From a phage: DNA of 64,000 bases. The position numbers and the translations under genes are program-made. The DNA lies in NCBI GenBank assembly GCA_036253495.1, contig GCA_036253495.1_4125.1. One strand, given 5' to 3'. Below the pieces are notes generated by a model that saw only the letters and a program-made list of their open reading frames with translations, was not told where the DNA came from and did no database searches. Shown here piece by piece: positions 16,400-36,886 of this stretch (the first letter of the stretch is position 1; each line of letters starts with the position of its first letter).

Positions 16400-16463
16400 G
16401 AAGTGTCTGAGTCTATAATCTACCGTAGAGCACAAGGATGTGCTCATAACTCAAGGATGTTTT

Positions 16464-17903
16464 ATGAAAAAATACACAATTGACACAAACGTACTACTAT
16501 CCGATCCAAATGCAACCGTAGCATTTGATGGGGCAGCAGTGATTCTACCATTCACTGTTCTTGAAGAACTTGATTCAATCAAGAGCCGTAATGTTGACGT
16601 ATCACGTGATGCACGTTTCGCAATCCGTAACATCGATGCAATTCTGAAAGATGCTACTCATGAAGAAATCAGCAGTACTGGTGTTAATATTGCCAATATC
16701 CACAAAAATATGGATGCATCCAGTAAGCTATTCGTTATGACGAATGAAGAAGCTGAAGCACTTATTCGTATGGGCGGCAGTGAAGATAAAGTAGAAACTC
16801 TACTTAAAAGTACTGTACCAGATGACAAAATCATTCTAGTGGCTTTGGCATCACAATCAGTACTGGTAACTCGCGACATTAACATGCGTATCAAAGCAAT
16901 GAGCTACGGTGTTGAGGTACAAGATTACCGTCATGACGTTGCAATCGAAGATAGTGAGTTGATTCATATTGGTCAGCACCACCTTGATATTGATTTCTGG
17001 AAAACATTCAGTGAAGTTAATAATGCTGAAATTAAATCCCAACAAGAAGGTCGCCGTCTATATCACTATATTCCAACCGCATTGATTCAAGATGTTCTAC
17101 CAGATAATCTATGTATTGGTGATTATCTATATGATAATGCTGATGTACTATTCGTATACGAAGGTCAATCTGCTATCGAAGAAGAAGACGGTTCACTAAC
17201 ACCTGAAGATATTTTGGTATTCCAGGATATTGGTCAAAGTATCGCTCTTCGTGCTAAAGTTTGGGATATTAAAGCAAAGAATATTCAACAGGCACTAGCA
17301 ATTAACAGTATTCTTGACCCTGATGTACATTTGACAGTACTACTCGGTTCAGCAGGTACTGGTAAAACATTGATTACTGTTGCTACTTCACTCGAATTAG
17401 TGCTGGAAAAACGTAAATACGATCGTATAATCTTCTCCAAAACACAAGATTCTCAATTTGAAGAAATTGGTTTCTTGCCTGGTTCTGAAGCTGAAAAGGT
17501 CATCCCATTCTGTGGGGCTGCAATCGATGCTCTAGAGTATCTACACAAAGATGATGCTAACCCACAAGGTAGCATTGAAGAGATTCTCAAACGTAACGTA
17601 ATGCAGTTTAAAGCATTGAACTTTATTCGTGGTCGTTCTTTCACTAATACAATTCTAATTGTAGATGAATTCCAGAACATCACCCCTGCACAGGCAAAGA
17701 CTATTCTTACCCGTGCTGGACAAAACTGTAAGGTTATCATTATGGGTAACTTAGCACAGATTGATAGTAAGTTTATTAGTCCAGTGAACAGTGGTTTGAC
17801 ATATGTAACTGAAAAATTCAAAGATTGGGAAGGTTGCCGTATCATTGAATTGGAAGGTGTAGTACGTTCTGCACTCGCTGAGTTTGCAGAAGAAAATATG
17901 TAA
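16464..17903 (+). CDS. phoH: PIN-domain / PhoH-like ATPase fusion
   Basis: N-terminal PIN-like segment KKYTIDTNVLL; Walker A LLGSAGTGKTL; ATG at 16464 preferred over track start 16440. Confidence 0.78.
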   Translation: MKKYTIDTNVLLSDPNATVAFDGAAVILPFTVLEELDSIKSRNVDVSRDARFAIRNIDAILKDATHEEISSTGVNIANIHKNMDASSKLFVMTNEEAEALIRMGGSEDKVETLLKSTVPDDKIILVALASQSVLVTRDINMRIKAMSYGVEVQDYRHDVAIEDSELIHIGQHHLDIDFWKTFSEVNNAEIKSQQEGRRLYHYIPTALIQDVLPDNLCIGDYLYDNADVLFVYEGQSAIEEEDGSLTPEDILVFQDIGQSIALRAKVWDIKAKNIQQALAINSILDPDVHLTVLLGSAGTGKTLITVATSLELVLEKRKYDRIIFSKTQDSQFEEIGFLPGSEAEKVIPFCGAAIDALEYLHKDDANPQGSIEEILKRNVMQFKALNFIRGRSFTNTILIVDEFQNITPAQAKTILTRAGQNCKVIIMGNLAQIDSKFISPVNSGLTYVTEKFKDWEGCRIIELEGVVRSALAEFAEENM

Positions 17904-17910
17904 TCTATTA

Positions 17911-17939
17911 TTGACATTAAATGTGTTCATTGCTATAAT
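17911..17939 (+). promoter_or_regulatory. consensus sigma70-type promoter (TTGACA-17nt-TATAAT)
   Basis: TTGACA 17911-17916, 17-nt spacer, TATAAT 17934-17939; inverted repeat GTGTTCAT/ATGAACAC straddles the -10. Confidence 0.6.
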
Positions 17940-17971: not shown

Positions 17972-18160
17972 ATGGCTAAACAACCTAAGAAAAAAGAACC
18001 AGAAGTTAAAGTTAAAAAAGTGAAAGTTATTCAATCCAAAGAACAACGCACTTATGAGCTACGTAAAGCTGAAACTTTAAGTGGGCTTCAGTCTCTACGT
18101 AAGCAAGGTGTACTAACACGTGCACAATATCGTGAACTGGTTGCACAAAAAGGTTTTTGA
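17972..18160 (+). CDS. small basic protein
   Basis: 62 aa, Lys-rich N-terminus; SD AAGGAAG. Confidence 0.45.
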   Translation: MAKQPKKKEPEVKVKKVKVIQSKEQRTYELRKAETLSGLQSLRKQGVLTRAQYRELVAQKGF

Positions 18161-18304
18161 TTTAACGCGTTTTTTTGGAGTTCTTAATAAATACTTTCAT
18201 AAGAATAATAATACTTTTTATGAATTTAAAAAGAACTCCATGTGTTATTTCAGTAAGTTTTTCATCCCTGTCAATTGGCAGGGATTTTTTATTGGTGGTA
18301 AACT

Positions 18305-19051
18305 ATGGATCTTGAAAAACAAACCGAAGCAATCATCACCGAACTAATCAAAATTGGTTATAAATGCCCATTTATCTATGGTTCGTGGAATACTTTTTGT
18401 TTGTATAAGTATGATGACAAATTACCAAATGATATTGATGTTATTAATATAGTACCAGAAGAGTTTGAAGAAGGTGAGTTCTCTGTAAAATTAGATTGTA
18501 TTGATATACCTGTCAATATTGAATGTATGACTCTCAATCATCTTCGTGTCGAATTAATGCGTGGTGATGTTAAATACTATACCATCGGTTTTGGTACTAT
18601 TGTACCGAAATGTGCAAATCATCTTTTGATGTACCTTGGTCATATCGGTTCGGTTATGATGACACGCCGTAACAGTGAGATTCGTAAAATTTGCAGTACT
18701 GCATCAGATAAAGCCTTTAATAAAGGAAAAAAGAAGTTGACAGTACTGGAAGATTACGATAAGATGTTAGGACTAAAGAACATCTGGCATAGCATTCACT
18801 TCATCTATATCATTACGCATTATTACAATCTGTACAGATCCAACACTGAACATGAAATGAATATTGCGTCAATGAAACAAGAGTTTGATGTGCTTGAAAT
18901 GCTGAACATTCGCGACAACATATATAAGATATATGATGAAACATATGGTGATTATCATGTAAAAGCACAAGCTGTTATTGATTATGCGAAACCGATTCGT
19001 AACAAACTGATGACTGAATTTAGAAAATTATACCCCAAGGAGGATGTATGA
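18305..19051 (+). CDS. hypothetical protein with nucleotidyltransferase-like GS...DxD motif
   Basis: YGSWNTFCLYKYDDKLPNDIDVI fits a loose Pol-beta NTase pattern; weak. Confidence 0.4.
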   Translation: MDLEKQTEAIITELIKIGYKCPFIYGSWNTFCLYKYDDKLPNDIDVINIVPEEFEEGEFSVKLDCIDIPVNIECMTLNHLRVELMRGDVKYYTIGFGTIVPKCANHLLMYLGHIGSVMMTRRNSEIRKICSTASDKAFNKGKKKLTVLEDYDKMLGLKNIWHSIHFIYIITHYYNLYRSNTEHEMNIASMKQEFDVLEMLNIRDNIYKIYDETYGDYHVKAQAVIDYAKPIRNKLMTEFRKLYPKEDV

Positions 19052-19114
19052 AAGATACTTTCAGAGGTCGCATGACTTTCCATTAAGGAACTTTAACTTA
19101 ATGGAGAAAATAAT

Positions 19115-19672
19115 ATGTTCTTTGACCAAACATTTACGTTGTACCATGATTCTGGAAAAGTAGAGATTGTTGATAATCTTCTACAATATATTGCTGACCA
19201 CGAAGGGGTTGATCTATTTCACAGCAAAATGAAATTTGATTTATCCGAGTTCAACAAGAAGAATCGTGAATCATTCTGGAAAAATCGTTTCTATTACGAA
19301 ATGTATCCTGAAAAGTTTGTAGGTTATTATCTCTGTACTGAAAAAGGTTTATTAGTATCGCCTGATTTACTTATGGGTGAATACATGGTTCTCTATAATG
19401 AGTACTGGGAACATAAACGTAAGGCCCGTGACACCGAATGGCGACACAAACGCTCTTACATGTACAAGCATAACCATTCTCGCTACAAACGTCCTAAGAC
19501 CCAACAAGAGCGTCGTATGGCGTGTGCAGTACTGAAGGATGATGGTGAACCTGATATTCGTGGAAAACGCAAGATGCGTTCACTACCGACATATTGGGAC
19601 GATTTTAGAACAAGACACAGTACTGGCTGGAAATACAGTACTAAGCGTAAAAAACAATACAAAGGGAGCTAA
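19115..19672 (+). CDS. hypothetical protein with very basic C-terminus
   Basis: 185 aa; C-terminal Arg/Lys-rich segment. Confidence 0.45.
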   Translation: MFFDQTFTLYHDSGKVEIVDNLLQYIADHEGVDLFHSKMKFDLSEFNKKNRESFWKNRFYYEMYPEKFVGYYLCTEKGLLVSPDLLMGEYMVLYNEYWEHKRKARDTEWRHKRSYMYKHNHSRYKRPKTQQERRMACAVLKDDGEPDIRGKRKMRSLPTYWDDFRTRHSTGWKYSTKRKKQYKGS

Positions 19673-19690
19673 TGCTCCCTATTTTTATAG
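19662..19690 (+). terminator. intrinsic terminator (GGGAGC-TAAT-GCTCCC then TATTTTTA)
   Basis: Perfect hairpin overlapping stop codon of 19115-19672. Confidence 0.5.
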
Positions 19691-35246: not shown

Positions 35247-35648
35247 ATGGATCTTGATGATGTGTATAGCACCATAAGACAGATGGATTCGTATAAAAAA
35301 GTATATAGTGGTTACAAGAGTGATAAACAATTTTATGGAATCGGGGAGTATGATGTAATATCATTCGAATACGATGATACTGGTGAAAGTTCCATTAATA
35401 TTGTTTGTCCTCGTGACCGTGAAAATAACTTCATGTACGTTGAAATCAATAATGATGGTTTACACTTTACTAAAATATTAAATGGTGGCAAACAATCTAT
35501 TTCTCTGGATTTATCCGAAGAAGAAAAGTTCTTTCAAGAAGATACTATAATCAATCTAGGTTTTAGTTTATCAGAATACAAAGTTCTTCATAAAGATTTC
35601 ATGAAGTACTATAATGGGTTTCTTAAGGAGCTAACATTACATCTATGA
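35247..35648 (+). CDS. hypothetical protein
   Basis: 133 aa ORF. Confidence 0.45.
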   Translation: MDLDDVYSTIRQMDSYKKVYSGYKSDKQFYGIGEYDVISFEYDDTGESSINIVCPRDRENNFMYVEINNDGLHFTKILNGGKQSISLDLSEEEKFFQEDTIINLGFSLSEYKVLHKDFMKYYNGFLKELTLHL

Positions 35649-36886
35649 ATAATAACAAATTTCTTGAACAAACAATTGTGAAGCACTTAGCAGGTTCACA
35701 AGCGTATGGAACCAGTACACCTGAAAGTGATACGGATTATCGTGGTATTTTTCTTGCTAACAAAGAGTTCATTCTGACACCTTTTTATAATGTAAAAGAA
35801 GTTTCTGATTCAAGAGAAGAAGATACTAAATTCTATGAACTAAACCAGTACTTAAGACTATACACAGAGGCTAACCCAAATATCCTTGAATCACTATGGG
35901 TTGATCCTGAACACATCGTAGAAAGTACTGAAATCTATGATTATCTACGTACATTCAATCAACAATTACTTAGTTCTAAGATCGCATTCTCTTATACCGG
36001 TTATGCATATAATCAGGTTAAACGTATGTCCAATCACCACGGGTGGATGGATAAAGAGCGTATTGCTGAAAAACGTCTAAATGAAATCTTAGAAGATTTT
36101 CCTGTAGATGAAACTTTAGCATGGATGTATGAAAACTTCCCACACTATTTGGTAGAACGTTTAGATACTTCTAAACTACATCCATTTAATGCTAAGAAAA
36201 TAGATTTTGAAAAATACATGCGTGATACTTCATTGCAGTTAGTTTCGACTCATCCGTTGAAACAGTATCATTTTGTACGTTTAGTACATAATTACAGTAC
36301 TGATAAAGTACTAGACCGTGATTTCAACTTATTGGATTATAACAATGGGTACGAATTAATTCATTACGGTGAAAATATCTTTGGTGTTATTATCAATCCT
36401 AATGAAAGTACAATTAACGCTGATGGTTCTTTACGTTATTTCAACAAAGAACGCAGTACTGAAGAATTGAAAGTGCGACCTGAACTCATTGTTAAATTCA
36501 ATGAAAAAGAATACAGTGAGAACAGTGAGAACCGTAAAAGTTATCACAAATGGAAAGAGAATCGTAATGCTAAACGTGCAATTCTTGAATCCAAACACGG
36601 CTACGATTGCAAACATGCTATGCATACGATCAGACTTTTGAATACAGCCGAAGAAGCATTACAAAGCGGTATTATCCTTGTTAAACGTCCTGATGCTGAT
36701 ATGCTAATGGATATCCGCAACGGTAAATGGAAGTATGAAGAAGTCATGGATTATTTCAATGAAAAGGTTGACTATATCCGCAATGTGGTGTATCCTAAGT
36801 CAGTTCTACCAAAGAAACCAAACATTCAACTAGCTGCAAAAGTTCTAATCGATATTCGAGAAATGCAGTGGTATGGTAAAAAATAA
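35645..36886 (+). CDS. nucleotidyltransferase-fold protein (Pol-beta superfamily)
   Basis: Classic motif HLAGSQAYGTSTPESDTDYRGIF (GS-x10-DxD); 413 aa with large C-terminal extension. Confidence 0.55.
   Translation: MNNNKFLEQTIVKHLAGSQAYGTSTPESDTDYRGIFLANKEFILTPFYNVKEVSDSREEDTKFYELNQYLRLYTEANPNILESLWVDPEHIVESTEIYDYLRTFNQQLLSSKIAFSYTGYAYNQVKRMSNHHGWMDKERIAEKRLNEILEDFPVDETLAWMYENFPHYLVERLDTSKLHPFNAKKIDFEKYMRDTSLQLVSTHPLKQYHFVRLVHNYSTDKVLDRDFNLLDYNNGYELIHYGENIFGVIINPNESTINADGSLRYFNKERSTEELKVRPELIVKFNEKEYSENSENRKSYHKWKENRNAKRAILESKHGYDCKHAMHTIRLLNTAEEALQSGIILVKRPDADMLMDIRNGKWKYEEVMDYFNEKVDYIRNVVYPKSVLPKKPNIQLAAKVLIDIREMQWYGKK

What the first reader, a model, noticed from the sequence alone, without database searches (positions are those of the whole stretch)
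18305..19051. Second, weaker nucleotidyltransferase-like protein downstream of a consensus promoter and small basic protein
YGSWNTFCLYKYDDKLPNDIDVI loosely fits the GS...DxD pattern with a longer spacer than usual. It lies in an operon-like unit starting at the consensus promoter at 17911-17939 and a 62-aa Lys-rich protein. The assignment is tentative.
Basis: inference. Interest (0 to 1): 0.35.

Follow-up and report, generated by a model that had tools for sequence, protein, structure and literature searches.

The report
Compact RlaP-like nucleotidyltransferase of jumbo phage
The ORF is a real, conserved two-domain nucleotidyltransferase-fold protein of Rak2/121Q-like jumbo phages, a short distant cousin of the RNA-repair enzyme RlaP; this is a fairly ordinary result, its substrate is unknown, and it sits behind a conserved terminator, so it is not in a simple operon.

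Summary
The window is an Asteriusvirus (Rak2/121Q-like jumbo phage), 99% identical to Escherichia phage A4. The 248-aa ORF at 18305-19051 is A4_477, annotated "hypothetical protein".

G26, S27, D43 and D45 are invariant in 28 close homologs and in 74 distant ones at about 20% identity. AlphaFold (pLDDT 91) gives a pol-beta nucleotidyltransferase (NTase) core plus a helical C-domain. The best PDB matches are kanamycin nucleotidyltransferase, 3C18 and LinB.

A broad-family profile links the protein to Pfam NTP_transf_2, Polbeta and RlaP. It also links it to the window's RlaP-type protein (35645-36886): N-domain 96% probability, E 4e-9. The C-domain link is weak but reciprocal, at a shared K-x3-H-x2-R motif. 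So the two proteins are related only remotely.

The canonical third carboxylate is Asn (N71), with Glu two residues on (E73).

The gene is ancestral at this slot (PIN-PhoH, small protein, terminator, gene) in at least five genera and was lost in the 121Q clade. A conserved intrinsic terminator ends 13 nt before the start codon, so expression needs read-through.

The most likely function is an Mg-dependent NMP transferase, possibly acting on RNA 3' ends; the substrate is inferred, not shown. Interest is low to moderate.

The parts
17911..17939 (+). Sigma-70 consensus promoter (TTGACA-17-TATAAT with TG extended -10) upstream of the small basic gene
   Evidence: 12/12 match in the scan. The equivalent site in Turkey5 is also 12/12. 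Function is inferred, not shown.
17972..18160 (+). Gene for a 62-aa Lys-rich small protein of unknown function
   Evidence: ORF list; phrog_24119 at 7e-33. A small gene occupies this slot in GAP32, CBB, Kaldavass, Munch and fHe-Yen9-04.
18176..18252 (+). Conserved non-coding block that folds as a long hairpin. It contains an invariant ATAAATA (18187-18193, predicted late-promoter motif), an A/T-rich stretch, and an invariant ACTCCATGT (18235-18243).
   Evidence: Invariant blocks across 7 phages of at least 5 genera. Nearly identical in 121Q, which lacks the ORF. Folding z-score -6.5 in the window, -2.8 to -6.6 across all seven phages. ATAAATA followed by A/T-rich sequence is the predicted late promoter of CBB and GAP32 (PMC5259590).
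18264..18291 (+). Intrinsic terminator: 9-bp stem (5 GC pairs), 4-nt loop, then a T-run, ending 13 nt before the ORF start codon
   Evidence: Scan. Same structure and position, with different stem sequences, in GAP32, fHe-Yen9-04, Munch and Turkey5. 4 of 7 pairs show compensatory changes.
18294..18298 (+). Shine-Dalgarno-like GGTGG, 6 nt before the ATG
   Evidence: Read directly from the sequence. Other genera have TGGA at the equivalent place.
18305..19051 (+). ORF for a 248-aa two-domain pol-beta-superfamily nucleotidyltransferase-like protein (A4_477 ortholog)
18305..18589 (+). N-terminal NTase core (about residues 1-95): helix, strand ending in G26-S27 (18380-18385), strand with D43-I-D45 (18431-18439), and strand with N71/E73 (18515-18523)
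   Evidence: AF2 secondary structure H3-16, E22-25, H27-33, E44-50, E57-61, E70-76. Invariant columns. hhalign against the RlaP family gives 96% probability, E 4e-9.
18602..19048 (+). C-terminal all-helical domain (about residues 100-248) with an invariant basic motif: R127 (18683-18685), K140-G-K-K143-K144-L (18722-18739), D150-Y-D152, K158 (18776-18778), H162 (18788-18790), N233, F239, R240, P244, K245
   Evidence: Helices H101-119, 123-146, 153-177, 182-212, 217-242. Invariant columns. Weak but reciprocal match to the RlaP C-terminal K-x3-H-x2-R motif.
18292..19071 (.). Segment present in the window, A4, Turkey5 and JNE01 but replaced by about 53 unrelated nt in 121Q-type Asteriusviruses (boundaries of the gene loss)
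   Evidence: Two-piece flank-only matches in H4-H20; 121Q annotation; alignments.

Best explanation
The ORF encodes a compact (248-aa) two-domain member of the DNA-polymerase-beta nucleotidyltransferase (NTase) superfamily. An N-terminal NTase core carries the GS and DxD metal/NTP-binding motifs. A C-terminal helical domain carries an invariant cluster of basic residues (R127, K140, K143, K144, K158, H162) that would line the interdomain cleft. The protein belongs to an uncharacterised family found in jumbo phages, giant viruses and some bacteria. By profile comparison, that family's nearest named relative is RlaP, the RNA-ligase-associated NTase that adds one or two NMPs to RNA 3'-OH ends. 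It lacks RlaP's insert of about 170 residues between the two domains. The most likely mechanism is this: S27, D43 and D45 hold Mg-NTP; E73 (or N71) supplies the third metal ligand or base; the basic helices bind the triphosphate and a polyanionic acceptor; and NMP is transferred to an acceptor hydroxyl, most probably an RNA (tRNA) 3' end. The fold, the conserved active site and the family relationships are shown by computation. Catalytic activity and the RNA acceptor are inferred. The gene is ancestral in Rak2-like phages and dispensable, since the 121Q clade has lost it. Its transcription has to pass a conserved intrinsic terminator placed directly before its ribosome-binding site, which implies attenuated or conditional expression. 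My confidence is about 0.9 for an NTase-fold protein with a conserved active site, about 0.6 for an active enzyme of the RlaP-like clade, and about 0.35-0.4 for RNA 3' ends as acceptor. The number given below is for the whole statement.
For: Motif conservation: G26, S27, D43 and D45 are invariant in 28 close and 74 distant homologs. Structure: the AF2 model has pLDDT 91 and pTM 0.86, with an alpha-beta-alpha-beta-beta-beta core followed by helices. Foldseek against PDB puts ANT(4')-Ia/KNTase first (E 4e-4, probability 1.0), followed by 3C18 and then LinB at non-significant E (0.044). Foldseek against BFVD finds the CBB ortholog named 'Nucleotidyltransferase' (TM 0.81) and Klosneuvirus and Terrestrivirus NTases (TM about 0.6). 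Family links: members of the broad family hit Pfam NTP_transf_2 (39/74, best 6.9e-9), Polbeta (33/74, 8.1e-9) and RlaP (7/74, 2.6e-7). The broad-family profile hits KNTase (8e-6), AadA and MNT proteins in PDB. RlaP link: the N-domains align by hhalign at 96%, E 4e-9, including the LE.LW helix after the core. The C-domains match weakly but reciprocally, always at the K-x3-H-x2-R / W-K-x2-[KR] motifs (hhalign E 0.0024 against 0.28 and 0.7 for control segments; hmmsearch best E 8e-4 and 1e-3). The two window proteins share most of their BFVD structural neighbours. RlaP biochemistry and its two-domain structure with a basic cleft come from PMC12776372. In KNTase, LinB and AadA, Lys/Arg residues of the helical domain bind the ATP phosphates (PMC4631478). 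Third carboxylate: acidic residues at positions 71 and 73 are almost mutually exclusive across the family, which suggests relocation rather than loss in the N71/E73 proteins. Terminator and synteny.
Against: The window protein reaches no Pfam, NCBIfam, PHROG or PADLOC threshold; its best hit is DUF6932 at 14.3 bits against a cut-off of 27. RlaP is described as having three strictly conserved aspartates, but here the third position is N71, and 10 of 28 clade members have no acid at 71 or 73. No RNA ligase, RtcB or other RNA-repair gene is adjacent, and the window has no tRNA genes. The C-domain link to RlaP is statistically weak. The direct structural hit from the RlaP-type model to the CBB ortholog is not significant (rank 50, E 0.49). 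The best solved-structure matches are small-molecule NTases, not RNA enzymes. Genomic contexts of distant family members are heterogeneous, with no conserved partner.
Confidence: 0.45

Rival explanations
1. It is a small-molecule nucleotidyltransferase of the KNTase/LinB/AadA type. It would adenylylate a hydroxyl of a metabolite, antibiotic-like compound or nucleotide, with the helical domain forming the substrate pocket, possibly across a homodimer interface.
For: The best solved-structure matches are ANT(4')-Ia, ANT(4')-IIb, LinB and 3C18. The broad-family profile hits KNTase and AadA sequences. In these enzymes the third strand position or a helical-domain Glu acts as the base, and helical-domain Lys/Arg bind ATP. 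This tolerates a non-canonical third carboxylate such as N71/E73, and invariant D150 could play the role of the base.
Against: The whole-chain TM-score is only about 0.42 at 12-13% identity. No Pfam C-domain of the ANT families is hit. Six or more invariant basic residues are more than these enzymes need and suggest a polyanionic acceptor. Profile comparison places the N-domain, including the helix after the core, nearest to RlaP. It is not obvious why a lytic jumbo phage would modify an antibiotic.
Confidence: 0.2
2. It is a catalytically impaired or non-catalytic NTase-fold protein (a pseudoenzyme). It would bind an NTP or nucleotide signal, or an RNA, and act as a sensor, sponge or regulator rather than transferring nucleotides.
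For: The canonical third carboxylate is Asn or Gln in 24 of 28 clade members, and 10 of 28 have no acid at 71 or 73. The gene is dispensable, having been lost in the 121Q clade. Expression is restrained by a terminator.
Against: GS and DxD are absolutely invariant over large divergence, which is unusual for pseudoenzymes. Acids at 71 and 73 are nearly mutually exclusive, which suggests the carboxylate moved. KNTase-type enzymes work with two strand carboxylates plus a base elsewhere.
Confidence: 0.15
3. It is a protein-modifying NTase (AMPylase/NMPylase, like MntA of MNT-HEPN systems) or another counter-defence enzyme that modifies a host or phage protein or an immune signalling nucleotide.
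For: The broad-family profile hits MNT antitoxins in PDB at E 1e-3 to 1e-2. Members give weak PADLOC hits to candidate defence proteins PDC-M05A and PDC-S09 at E about 4e-3 to 7e-3. The neighbouring genes (Sir2-like, NUDIX, PIN-PhoH) are typical conflict-related functions.
Against: The hits cover only the generic NTase core. There is no adjacent HEPN or other partner gene. PADLOC scores are not significant. The synteny can be explained by vertical inheritance.
Confidence: 0.1
4. The motif is a chance pattern in an unrelated protein, or the ORF is not a real gene.
For: The single-sequence Pfam hit is below threshold, and there is no PHROG family.
Against: Homologs exist in 30 phage records and 319 representative clusters. 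The motif residues are invariant. The NTase fold is predicted with high confidence.
Confidence: 0.02

Closest known systems
[quoted passage not shown]
   Same: It has an N-terminal pol-beta NTase core with GS and DxD, followed by the same LE.LW-type helix (hhalign 96%, E 4e-9). It has a C-terminal helical domain carrying W-K-x2-[KR] and K-x3-H-x2-[KR] motifs in the same order. The two families share BFVD structural neighbours. RlaP is common in jumbo phages, and a bona fide RlaP-type gene lies in the same window at 35645-36886.
   Different: It is 248 aa, not about 350-415 aa, and lacks the insert of about 170 residues between core and C-domain (compare). The window protein does not match PF10127. 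The third 'strictly conserved' Asp is N71. It is not next to an RNA ligase. The C-domain similarity is only marginally significant.
Kanamycin nucleotidyltransferase ANT(4')-Ia, LinB, AadA, and PDB 3C18 (two-domain antibiotic or 'NTase-like' enzymes)
   Same: These are the best solved-structure matches, with the same NTase core plus helical-bundle architecture. Profile-to-sequence hits cover the core. Basic residues of the helical domain bind the NTP phosphates in these enzymes, which is a plausible role for K143, K144 and K158 here.
   Different: TM-score is about 0.42 and identity 12-13%. No C-domain sequence similarity was detected. Those enzymes act on small molecules and confer resistance in bacteria, whereas this is a conserved lytic-phage gene with a much more basic C-domain.
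Giant-virus and phage 'putative nucleotidyltransferases' (Klosneuvirus KNV1 A0A1V0SHU2, Terrestrivirus A0A3G4ZNK3; about 200-230 aa metagenomic proteins carrying Polbeta and NTP_transf_2 hits)
   Same: They have the same length class and the same fold (TM 0.58-0.67). Several of these BFVD giant-virus and phage NTases are also significant structural hits for the window's RlaP-type protein; I did not check whether the two giant-virus proteins carry this family's motifs. The metagenomic members are in the same sequence family, with R127, K143, K144, K158 and H162 invariant.
   Different: Most of the metagenomic members keep Asp at the third carboxylate and the short 10-residue GS-to-DxD spacer. 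The Rak2-like clade has N or Q at position 71 and a 13-15-residue spacer. None has been characterised.
DUF6932 (PF22014)
   Same: It is the most frequent Pfam hit among close homologs (16 of 28, best 1.1e-5) and is precomputed for P0019.
   Different: The window protein scores 14.3 bits against a 27-bit cut-off. The match covers only residues 5-55, the GS..DxD core. The family itself has no known function, and no paper in the library mentions it.

Membership tests
DNA polymerase beta-like nucleotidyltransferase superfamily | hG[GS] motif at the end of the first core strand | tested here: met
   Y25-G26-S27. G26 and S27 are invariant in 28 and in 74 sequences and sit at the E22-25/H27-33 junction of the model.
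DNA polymerase beta-like nucleotidyltransferase superfamily | [DE]h[DE]h motif on the second core strand (two metal-binding carboxylates) | tested here: met
   D43-I-D45-V at the start of strand E44-50, invariant in all homologs.
DNA polymerase beta-like nucleotidyltransferase superfamily | Third conserved carboxylate on a following strand | tested here: inconclusive
   The column that aligns with RlaP D60 is N71 here. It is Asp in 34 of 74 broad-family members but N or Q in 24 of 28 of the clade. E73 lies on the same strand and is nearly mutually exclusive with an acid at 71, but 10 of 28 clade members have neither.
DNA polymerase beta-like nucleotidyltransferase superfamily | Alpha-beta-alpha-beta-beta-beta core fold | tested here: met
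   AF2 model, pLDDT 91. Foldseek probability is 1.0 to KNTase and 3C18, 0.97 to LinB, and 1.0 to viral NTases.
RlaP (PF10127) | Match to the Pfam model above its gathering score | tested here: not met
   No PF10127 hit for the window protein, or for any of its 28 close homologs, at E up to 1. Only 7 of 74 broad-family members hit it at E up to 0.01.
RlaP (PF10127) | Three strictly conserved catalytic aspartates (PMC12776372) | tested here: not met
   D43 and D45 are present; the third position is N71.
RlaP (PF10127) | N-terminal NTase domain plus C-terminal helical domain forming a basic cleft | tested here: inconclusive
   The two-domain architecture and the invariant basic residues are present. 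Model coordinates could not be inspected, so the geometry of the cleft was not verified. No RlaP structure is in the PDB copy.
RlaP (PF10127) | Gene neighbourhood with RNA ligase or RtcB RNA-repair genes | tested here: not met
   Neighbours are Sir2-like, NUDIX, PIN-PhoH, a small basic protein and hypothetical genes in all six phages examined.
RlaP (PF10127) | Adds 1-2 NMP to RNA 3'-OH | not testable with these tools
   This is a biochemical property (PMC12776372).
KNTase/ANT(4')-type aminoglycoside nucleotidyltransferases | Whole-chain structural similarity (NTase core plus helical domain) | tested here: met
   6p01, 6un8 and 1kny: E 4e-4 to 2.6e-3, probability 1.0, but TM only 0.40-0.44.
KNTase/ANT(4')-type aminoglycoside nucleotidyltransferases | Sequence membership (C-terminal domain family; catalytic Glu145/Lys149 equivalents) | tested here: not met
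   Profile hits cover only core residues 4-73. There is no Pfam ANT C-domain hit. Equivalence of D150 or K143/K144 to Glu145/Lys149 could not be checked without coordinates.
MNT-HEPN toxin-antitoxin NTases | Minimal NTase encoded next to a HEPN partner | tested here: not met
   No HEPN gene is adjacent. The protein has its own large helical domain. MNT hits are core-only at E of 1e-3 or weaker.
DUF6932 (PF22014) | Match above the gathering score (27 bits) | tested here: not met
   14.3 bits, E 0.057, residues 5-55 only.

The most novel reading that the evidence does not exclude
The gene and its upstream region may form a conserved regulatory module that has not been described. In this reading, a late-type promoter (ATAAATA) drives a structured RNA of about 90-130 nt. 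That RNA carries an invariant ACUCCAUGU and ends at a terminator that abuts the NTase ribosome-binding site. It would be either a phage small RNA or a transcription attenuator that gates a compact RlaP-like NTase whose third catalytic carboxylate has moved or been lost. The NTase family itself (jumbo phages, giant viruses and some bacteria) would then be a distinct, uncharacterised RNA-end-modifying or nucleotide-binding family, not merely another copy of RlaP.
Probability: 0.2. Interest if true: 0.55.

Novelty: new member of a known kind. Interest (0 to 1): 0.3.

Why it matters
The result assigns a fold and a probable chemistry to a protein annotated as hypothetical in most Rak2-like jumbo phages. 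It also defines an uncharacterised compact NTase family (319 representative clusters) shared by jumbo phages and some bacteria, with structurally similar NTases in giant viruses (BFVD), and links that family to the recently characterised RNA-repair enzyme RlaP. If the RNA-end activity were confirmed, these phages would carry two different RlaP-type enzymes. That would bear on how jumbo phages counter host tRNA-targeting nucleases. The practical value is modest: better annotation, and a defined set of residues to mutate. The conserved non-coding element upstream of the gene may be the more original lead.

Tried and rejected
- **Direct comparison with the protein at 35645-36886.** BLASTP, hhalign of the close-family profile against the single sequence and against the RlaP-family profile all found nothing. 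The relationship appeared only after I built a broad-family profile from the exhaustive search.
- **PHROGs, NCBIfam and PADLOC.** No usable hits.
- **PDB sequence search with the close-family profile.** It gave only a spurious Hsp105 match to the AFNKGK motif.
- **Genomic context of distant family members.** Contexts were heterogeneous (bacterial-like contigs with H-NS genes, ORFan-rich contigs) with no conserved partner, so they gave no functional clue.
- **Names of distant members.** Almost none are named.
- **Literature.** No paper mentions DUF6932, and nothing specific was found on this gene in Asteriusvirus papers.
- **Remnants of the gene in 121Q.** None are convincing; the 53-nt replacement does not align.
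- **Non-coding element.** Rfam has no family for it; the best match is a sub-threshold terminator-only hit. RNAalifold on the MAFFT alignment recovered only the terminator, because the outer stem of hairpin 1 is shifted between genera. TATAAATA is not enriched in the window.
- **Promoter between terminator and ORF.** I considered and rejected this. Only 13 nt separate the T-run from the ATG, so the 9/12 'promoter' at 18275-18304 cannot serve a leadered mRNA.
Full report
**Identity of the window and the ORF**

The region is AT-rich (about 35% GC) and coded on the + strand. A 1.8-kb query around the finding is 99.2% identical to Escherichia phage A4, an Asteriusvirus, which is a Rak2/121Q-like jumbo phage of 355 kb. 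The ORF at 18305-19051 is A4_477, annotated 'hypothetical protein'. It lies between A4_476, the 62-aa small protein, and A4_478, and is downstream of a PIN-PhoH fusion protein.

**Is the motif more than chance?**

Yes.
- tblastn finds the protein in 30 phage records, all jumbo phages of about 320-380 kb: Escherichia, Yersinia, Cronobacter, Pectobacterium, Erwinia, Serratia, Salmonella, Klebsiella, Xanthomonas and Vibrio phages.
- The large protein collection adds metagenomic members.
- In an alignment of 28 sequences (29-54% identity), G26, S27, D43 and D45 are invariant. So is a striking C-terminal set: R127, S131, A137, K140, G141, K143, K144, L145, D150, L155-N159, H162, F166, and others.
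- An exhaustive HMM search of 1.84 billion representatives found 319 clusters at E up to 1e-3. There is a gap between the jumbo-phage clade (E up to 1e-32) and a broader family of 200-250-aa proteins (E 1e-20 and weaker).
- Across 74 of these, about 20% identical to the window protein, G26, S27, D43, D45, R127, K143, K144, K158 and H162 remain invariant.

**Fold**

AlphaFold2 with the family alignment gives a confident model (pLDDT 91.0, pTM 0.86). It has helix 3-16; strand 22-25 ending at G26-S27; helix 27-33; strand 44-50 beginning at D43-x-D45; strands 57-61 and 70-76; and then an all-helical domain from about residue 100.

Foldseek against PDB ranks kanamycin nucleotidyltransferase ANT(4')-Ia first (6p01, 6un8, 1kny; E 4e-4 to 3e-3, probability 1.0). 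Next come the 'nucleotidyltransferase-like protein' 3C18, LinB and ANT(4')-IIb. All of these are pol-beta NTase cores fused to a helical domain. Whole-chain TM-scores are only about 0.4.

Against BFVD, the CBB ortholog (named 'Nucleotidyltransferase' in UniProt) matches at TM 0.81. Klosneuvirus and Terrestrivirus NTases match at TM about 0.6.

**Sequence-family links**

The window protein on its own reaches no curated threshold. Its best hit is DUF6932, at 14.3 bits against a 27-bit cut-off, over residues 5-55 only. It has no PHROG, NCBIfam or PADLOC family.

Among its 28 close homologs, 16 hit DUF6932, 8 hit Polbeta and 3 hit NTP_transf_2. Among 74 broad-family members, 39 hit NTP_transf_2 (best 6.9e-9), 33 hit Polbeta (8.1e-9) and 7 hit RlaP (2.6e-7). 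The broad profile also hits KNTase (8e-6), AadA (7e-5) and MNT proteins in PDB, always over the core. The NTase assignment is therefore supported by motif, fold and transitive sequence evidence. One GenBank record (Erwinia phage Kaldavass) already annotates its ortholog as 'nucleotidyltransferase'.

**Paralogy with 35645-36886**

That protein is a bona fide RlaP-type NTase (PF10127 at 1.8e-16; phrog_388 at 2e-75).

Direct comparisons with the finding's protein or its close family show nothing. With the broad-family profile, the N-domains align:
- at E 3.8e-5 to the single sequence;
- at E 2.3e-6 to an RlaP-family profile;
- at 96% probability, E 4e-9, when the N-domains alone are compared; this alignment includes the helix after the core with the LE.LW motif.

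The C-domains give a weak signal. hhalign E is 0.0024, against 0.28 and 0.7 for two control segments. Reciprocal hmmsearch hits have best E values of 8e-4 and 1e-3. They always pair this family's W/S-x-V-K-A-K-K-K-L...K-S-x-x-H-x-x-R-I with RlaP's W-K-K-N-R-N...T-K-H-A-M-H-x-V-R-L.

A model of the RlaP-type protein (pLDDT 90.6) shares most of its BFVD neighbours with the finding's model. The direct hit to the CBB ortholog, however, is not significant (E 0.49). No RlaP structure is in the PDB copy.

My reading is that the finding's family is a compact relative of RlaP lacking its insert of about 170 residues. It is not a recent paralog.

**Catalytic residues**

The column that aligns with RlaP's third aspartate is N71. 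It is Asp in 34 of 74 broad-family members, but Asn or Gln in 24 of 28 of the jumbo-phage clade. An acid at position 73, two residues along the same strand, is almost mutually exclusive with an acid at 71:

| Alignment | Acid at 71 only | Acid at 73 only | Both | Neither |
|---|---|---|---|---|
| Clade (28 sequences) | 3 | 15 | 0 | 10 |
| Broad family (74 sequences) | 42 | 7 | 1 | 24 |

. The window protein is N71/E73.

This pattern fits relocation of the carboxylate in many members. It leaves a substantial minority with no third acid at all. RlaP is described as having three strictly conserved aspartates (PMC12776372). In KNTase, LinB and AadA the third strand position, or a helical-domain Glu, serves as the catalytic base, and helical-domain Lys/Arg residues bind the ATP phosphates (PMC4631478). 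The invariant K143, K144, K158, R127, H162 and D150 are candidates for the equivalent roles. This is inference: I could not inspect the coordinates.

**Genomic setting and history**

The order Sir2-like, NUDIX, hypothetical, PIN-PhoH, small protein, this gene, and later a 180-aa protein is conserved in Turkey5, GAP32, CBB, fHe-Yen9-04, Munch and Kaldavass. In 121Q and the other listed Asteriusviruses only the flanks match: two pieces covering 53-56% of the query. 121Q has a 226-nt intergenic region at this place, and no copy exists elsewhere in those genomes. Homology ends at 18291 and resumes at about 19072, and 121Q has about 53 unrelated nt in between. By parsimony the gene is ancestral to Rak2-like phages and was lost in the 121Q clade, so it is dispensable.

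**Transcription**

The promoter at 17911-17939 is a perfect sigma-70 consensus with an extended -10. Between the small gene and the ORF, however, lies a 9-bp, 5-GC hairpin followed by a T-run (18264-18291). It ends 13 nt before the ATG, and a GGTGG Shine-Dalgarno-like sequence sits in that gap.

The same layout is found in Turkey5, GAP32, fHe-Yen9-04 and Munch. Munch's depositors annotated a terminator there. The stem sequences differ between genera but the structure is kept, with 4 of 7 pairs showing compensatory changes. No promoter can fit between terminator and ORF. Expression therefore requires read-through, and 'operon-like' holds only in that attenuated sense.

**A side observation that may matter more**

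The stretch between the small gene and the terminator contains blocks that are invariant across all seven phages: ATAAATA, an A/T-rich run, TTTT, and ACTCCATGT. The flanking proteins are only 30-55% identical. The stretch is retained almost unchanged in 121Q, which lacks the ORF.

All seven versions fold into a long hairpin followed by the terminator, with z-scores from -2.8 to -6.6. The outer stem differs and is shifted between Asteriusviruses and the other genera. The full composite occurs once in the window and only in Rak2-like loci, and it is not in Rfam.

ATAAATA followed by A/T-rich sequence is the predicted late promoter of CBB and GAP32 (PMC5259590). In the window, 5 of 10 +-strand ATAAATA sites are intergenic, against 1.4 expected. 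Four of them lie 28-57 nt before an ORF. This one lies 118 nt before the NTase ORF, with the terminator in between. GAP32, CBB and Kaldavass also have an extended -10 promoter just upstream of the element.

The element could be a late-promoter-driven small RNA, a structured 3' UTR of the small gene, or an attenuating leader. I could not discriminate between these.

**Verdict**

The protein is a member of an uncharacterised compact pol-beta NTase family whose nearest named relative is RlaP. Its structural plan resembles KNTase-type enzymes. The third carboxylate is non-canonical. Substrate and activity remain inferred.

I rate it a new member of a known kind, with low to moderate interest (0.3). 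The most novel reading not excluded is that a conserved RNA element gates this gene, or is itself a phage small RNA.

Noticed in passing
window 18176-18291 (also L002 3224-3335, L003, L004 3838-3930, L005, L006, L007, L008, L017, L091): A non-coding element is conserved across at least 5 genera of Rak2-like phages. It has invariant ATAAATA, an A/T-rich run and ACTCCATGT inside a long hairpin, followed by a terminator. It is more conserved than the flanking proteins, is retained in 121Q (which lacks the NTase gene), and is not in Rfam. It may be a late-promoter-driven small RNA, a structured 3' UTR or an attenuator.
   Followed up: partly
window 19044-19082: A 12-codon mini-ORF (MKDTFRGRMTFH*) overlaps the stop of the NTase ORF. 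Counterparts that also end in ..FH* are found in 121Q (MRTCIKGRMTFH*) and Turkey5, just upstream of the 185-aa gene. It may be coincidental conservation of the leader of the next gene.
   Followed up: no
window 18292-19071 vs L002 3336-3388: The NTase gene is a presence/absence polymorphism within Asteriusvirus. It is present in A4, Turkey5 and JNE01 (the two copies are only 53% identical in protein) and absent in 121Q, G17, SP27, phAPEC6 and others. The large divergence between the A4 and Turkey5 copies contrasts with the near-identical upstream non-coding element.
   Followed up: yes
window 16461-17903: A PIN_4 plus PhoH fusion protein (PhoH2-type predicted RNase/RNA helicase; Pfam 1.2e-21 and 9.6e-44) lies immediately upstream and is syntenic with the NTase gene in all genera examined. 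A functional link is possible (both may act on RNA) but was not tested.
   Followed up: partly
window 35645-36886: The RlaP-type NTase (413 aa) models well (pLDDT 90.6). It has a beta-rich insert of about 170 residues (about residues 175-285) between the NTase core and the C-terminal helices. PF10127 matches only its N-terminal 120 residues. It lies just upstream of tail-fibre genes, not next to an RNA ligase.
   Followed up: partly
L004 3760-3789; alignment A6 columns 8-16 (GAP32, CBB, Kaldavass): An extended -10 promoter (TGGTATAAT or TGCTATAAT; in GAP32 TTGGAA-18-TATAAT) sits right after the small gene's stop, about 45 nt upstream of the conserved hairpin. This would give a separate transcript of about 130 nt ending at the terminator in these genera. 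It is absent in the Asteriusvirus version.
   Followed up: no
window 24755, 27507, 55556, 58628: Intergenic ATAAATA motifs lie 28-57 nt upstream of +-strand ORFs. They are candidate late promoters of the kind predicted for CBB and GAP32. Intergenic enrichment is 5 observed against 1.4 expected.
   Followed up: partly
window 19663-19680: A symmetric hairpin (AGGGAGCTAATGCTCCCT) is scored as a terminator on both strands, right at the end of the 185-aa gene.
   Followed up: no
L009 6001-6627 (GCA_013565635.1 contig, 436 kb); L014/L015 6001-6624: Distant members of the compact NTase family occur on large non-phage contigs. One is next to SRA/PvuRts1I-like (modified-cytosine restriction) genes. Another is on a 2-Mb bacterial-like contig near three H-NS genes and an ankyrin-repeat gene. 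The family is therefore not confined to viruses.
   Followed up: no
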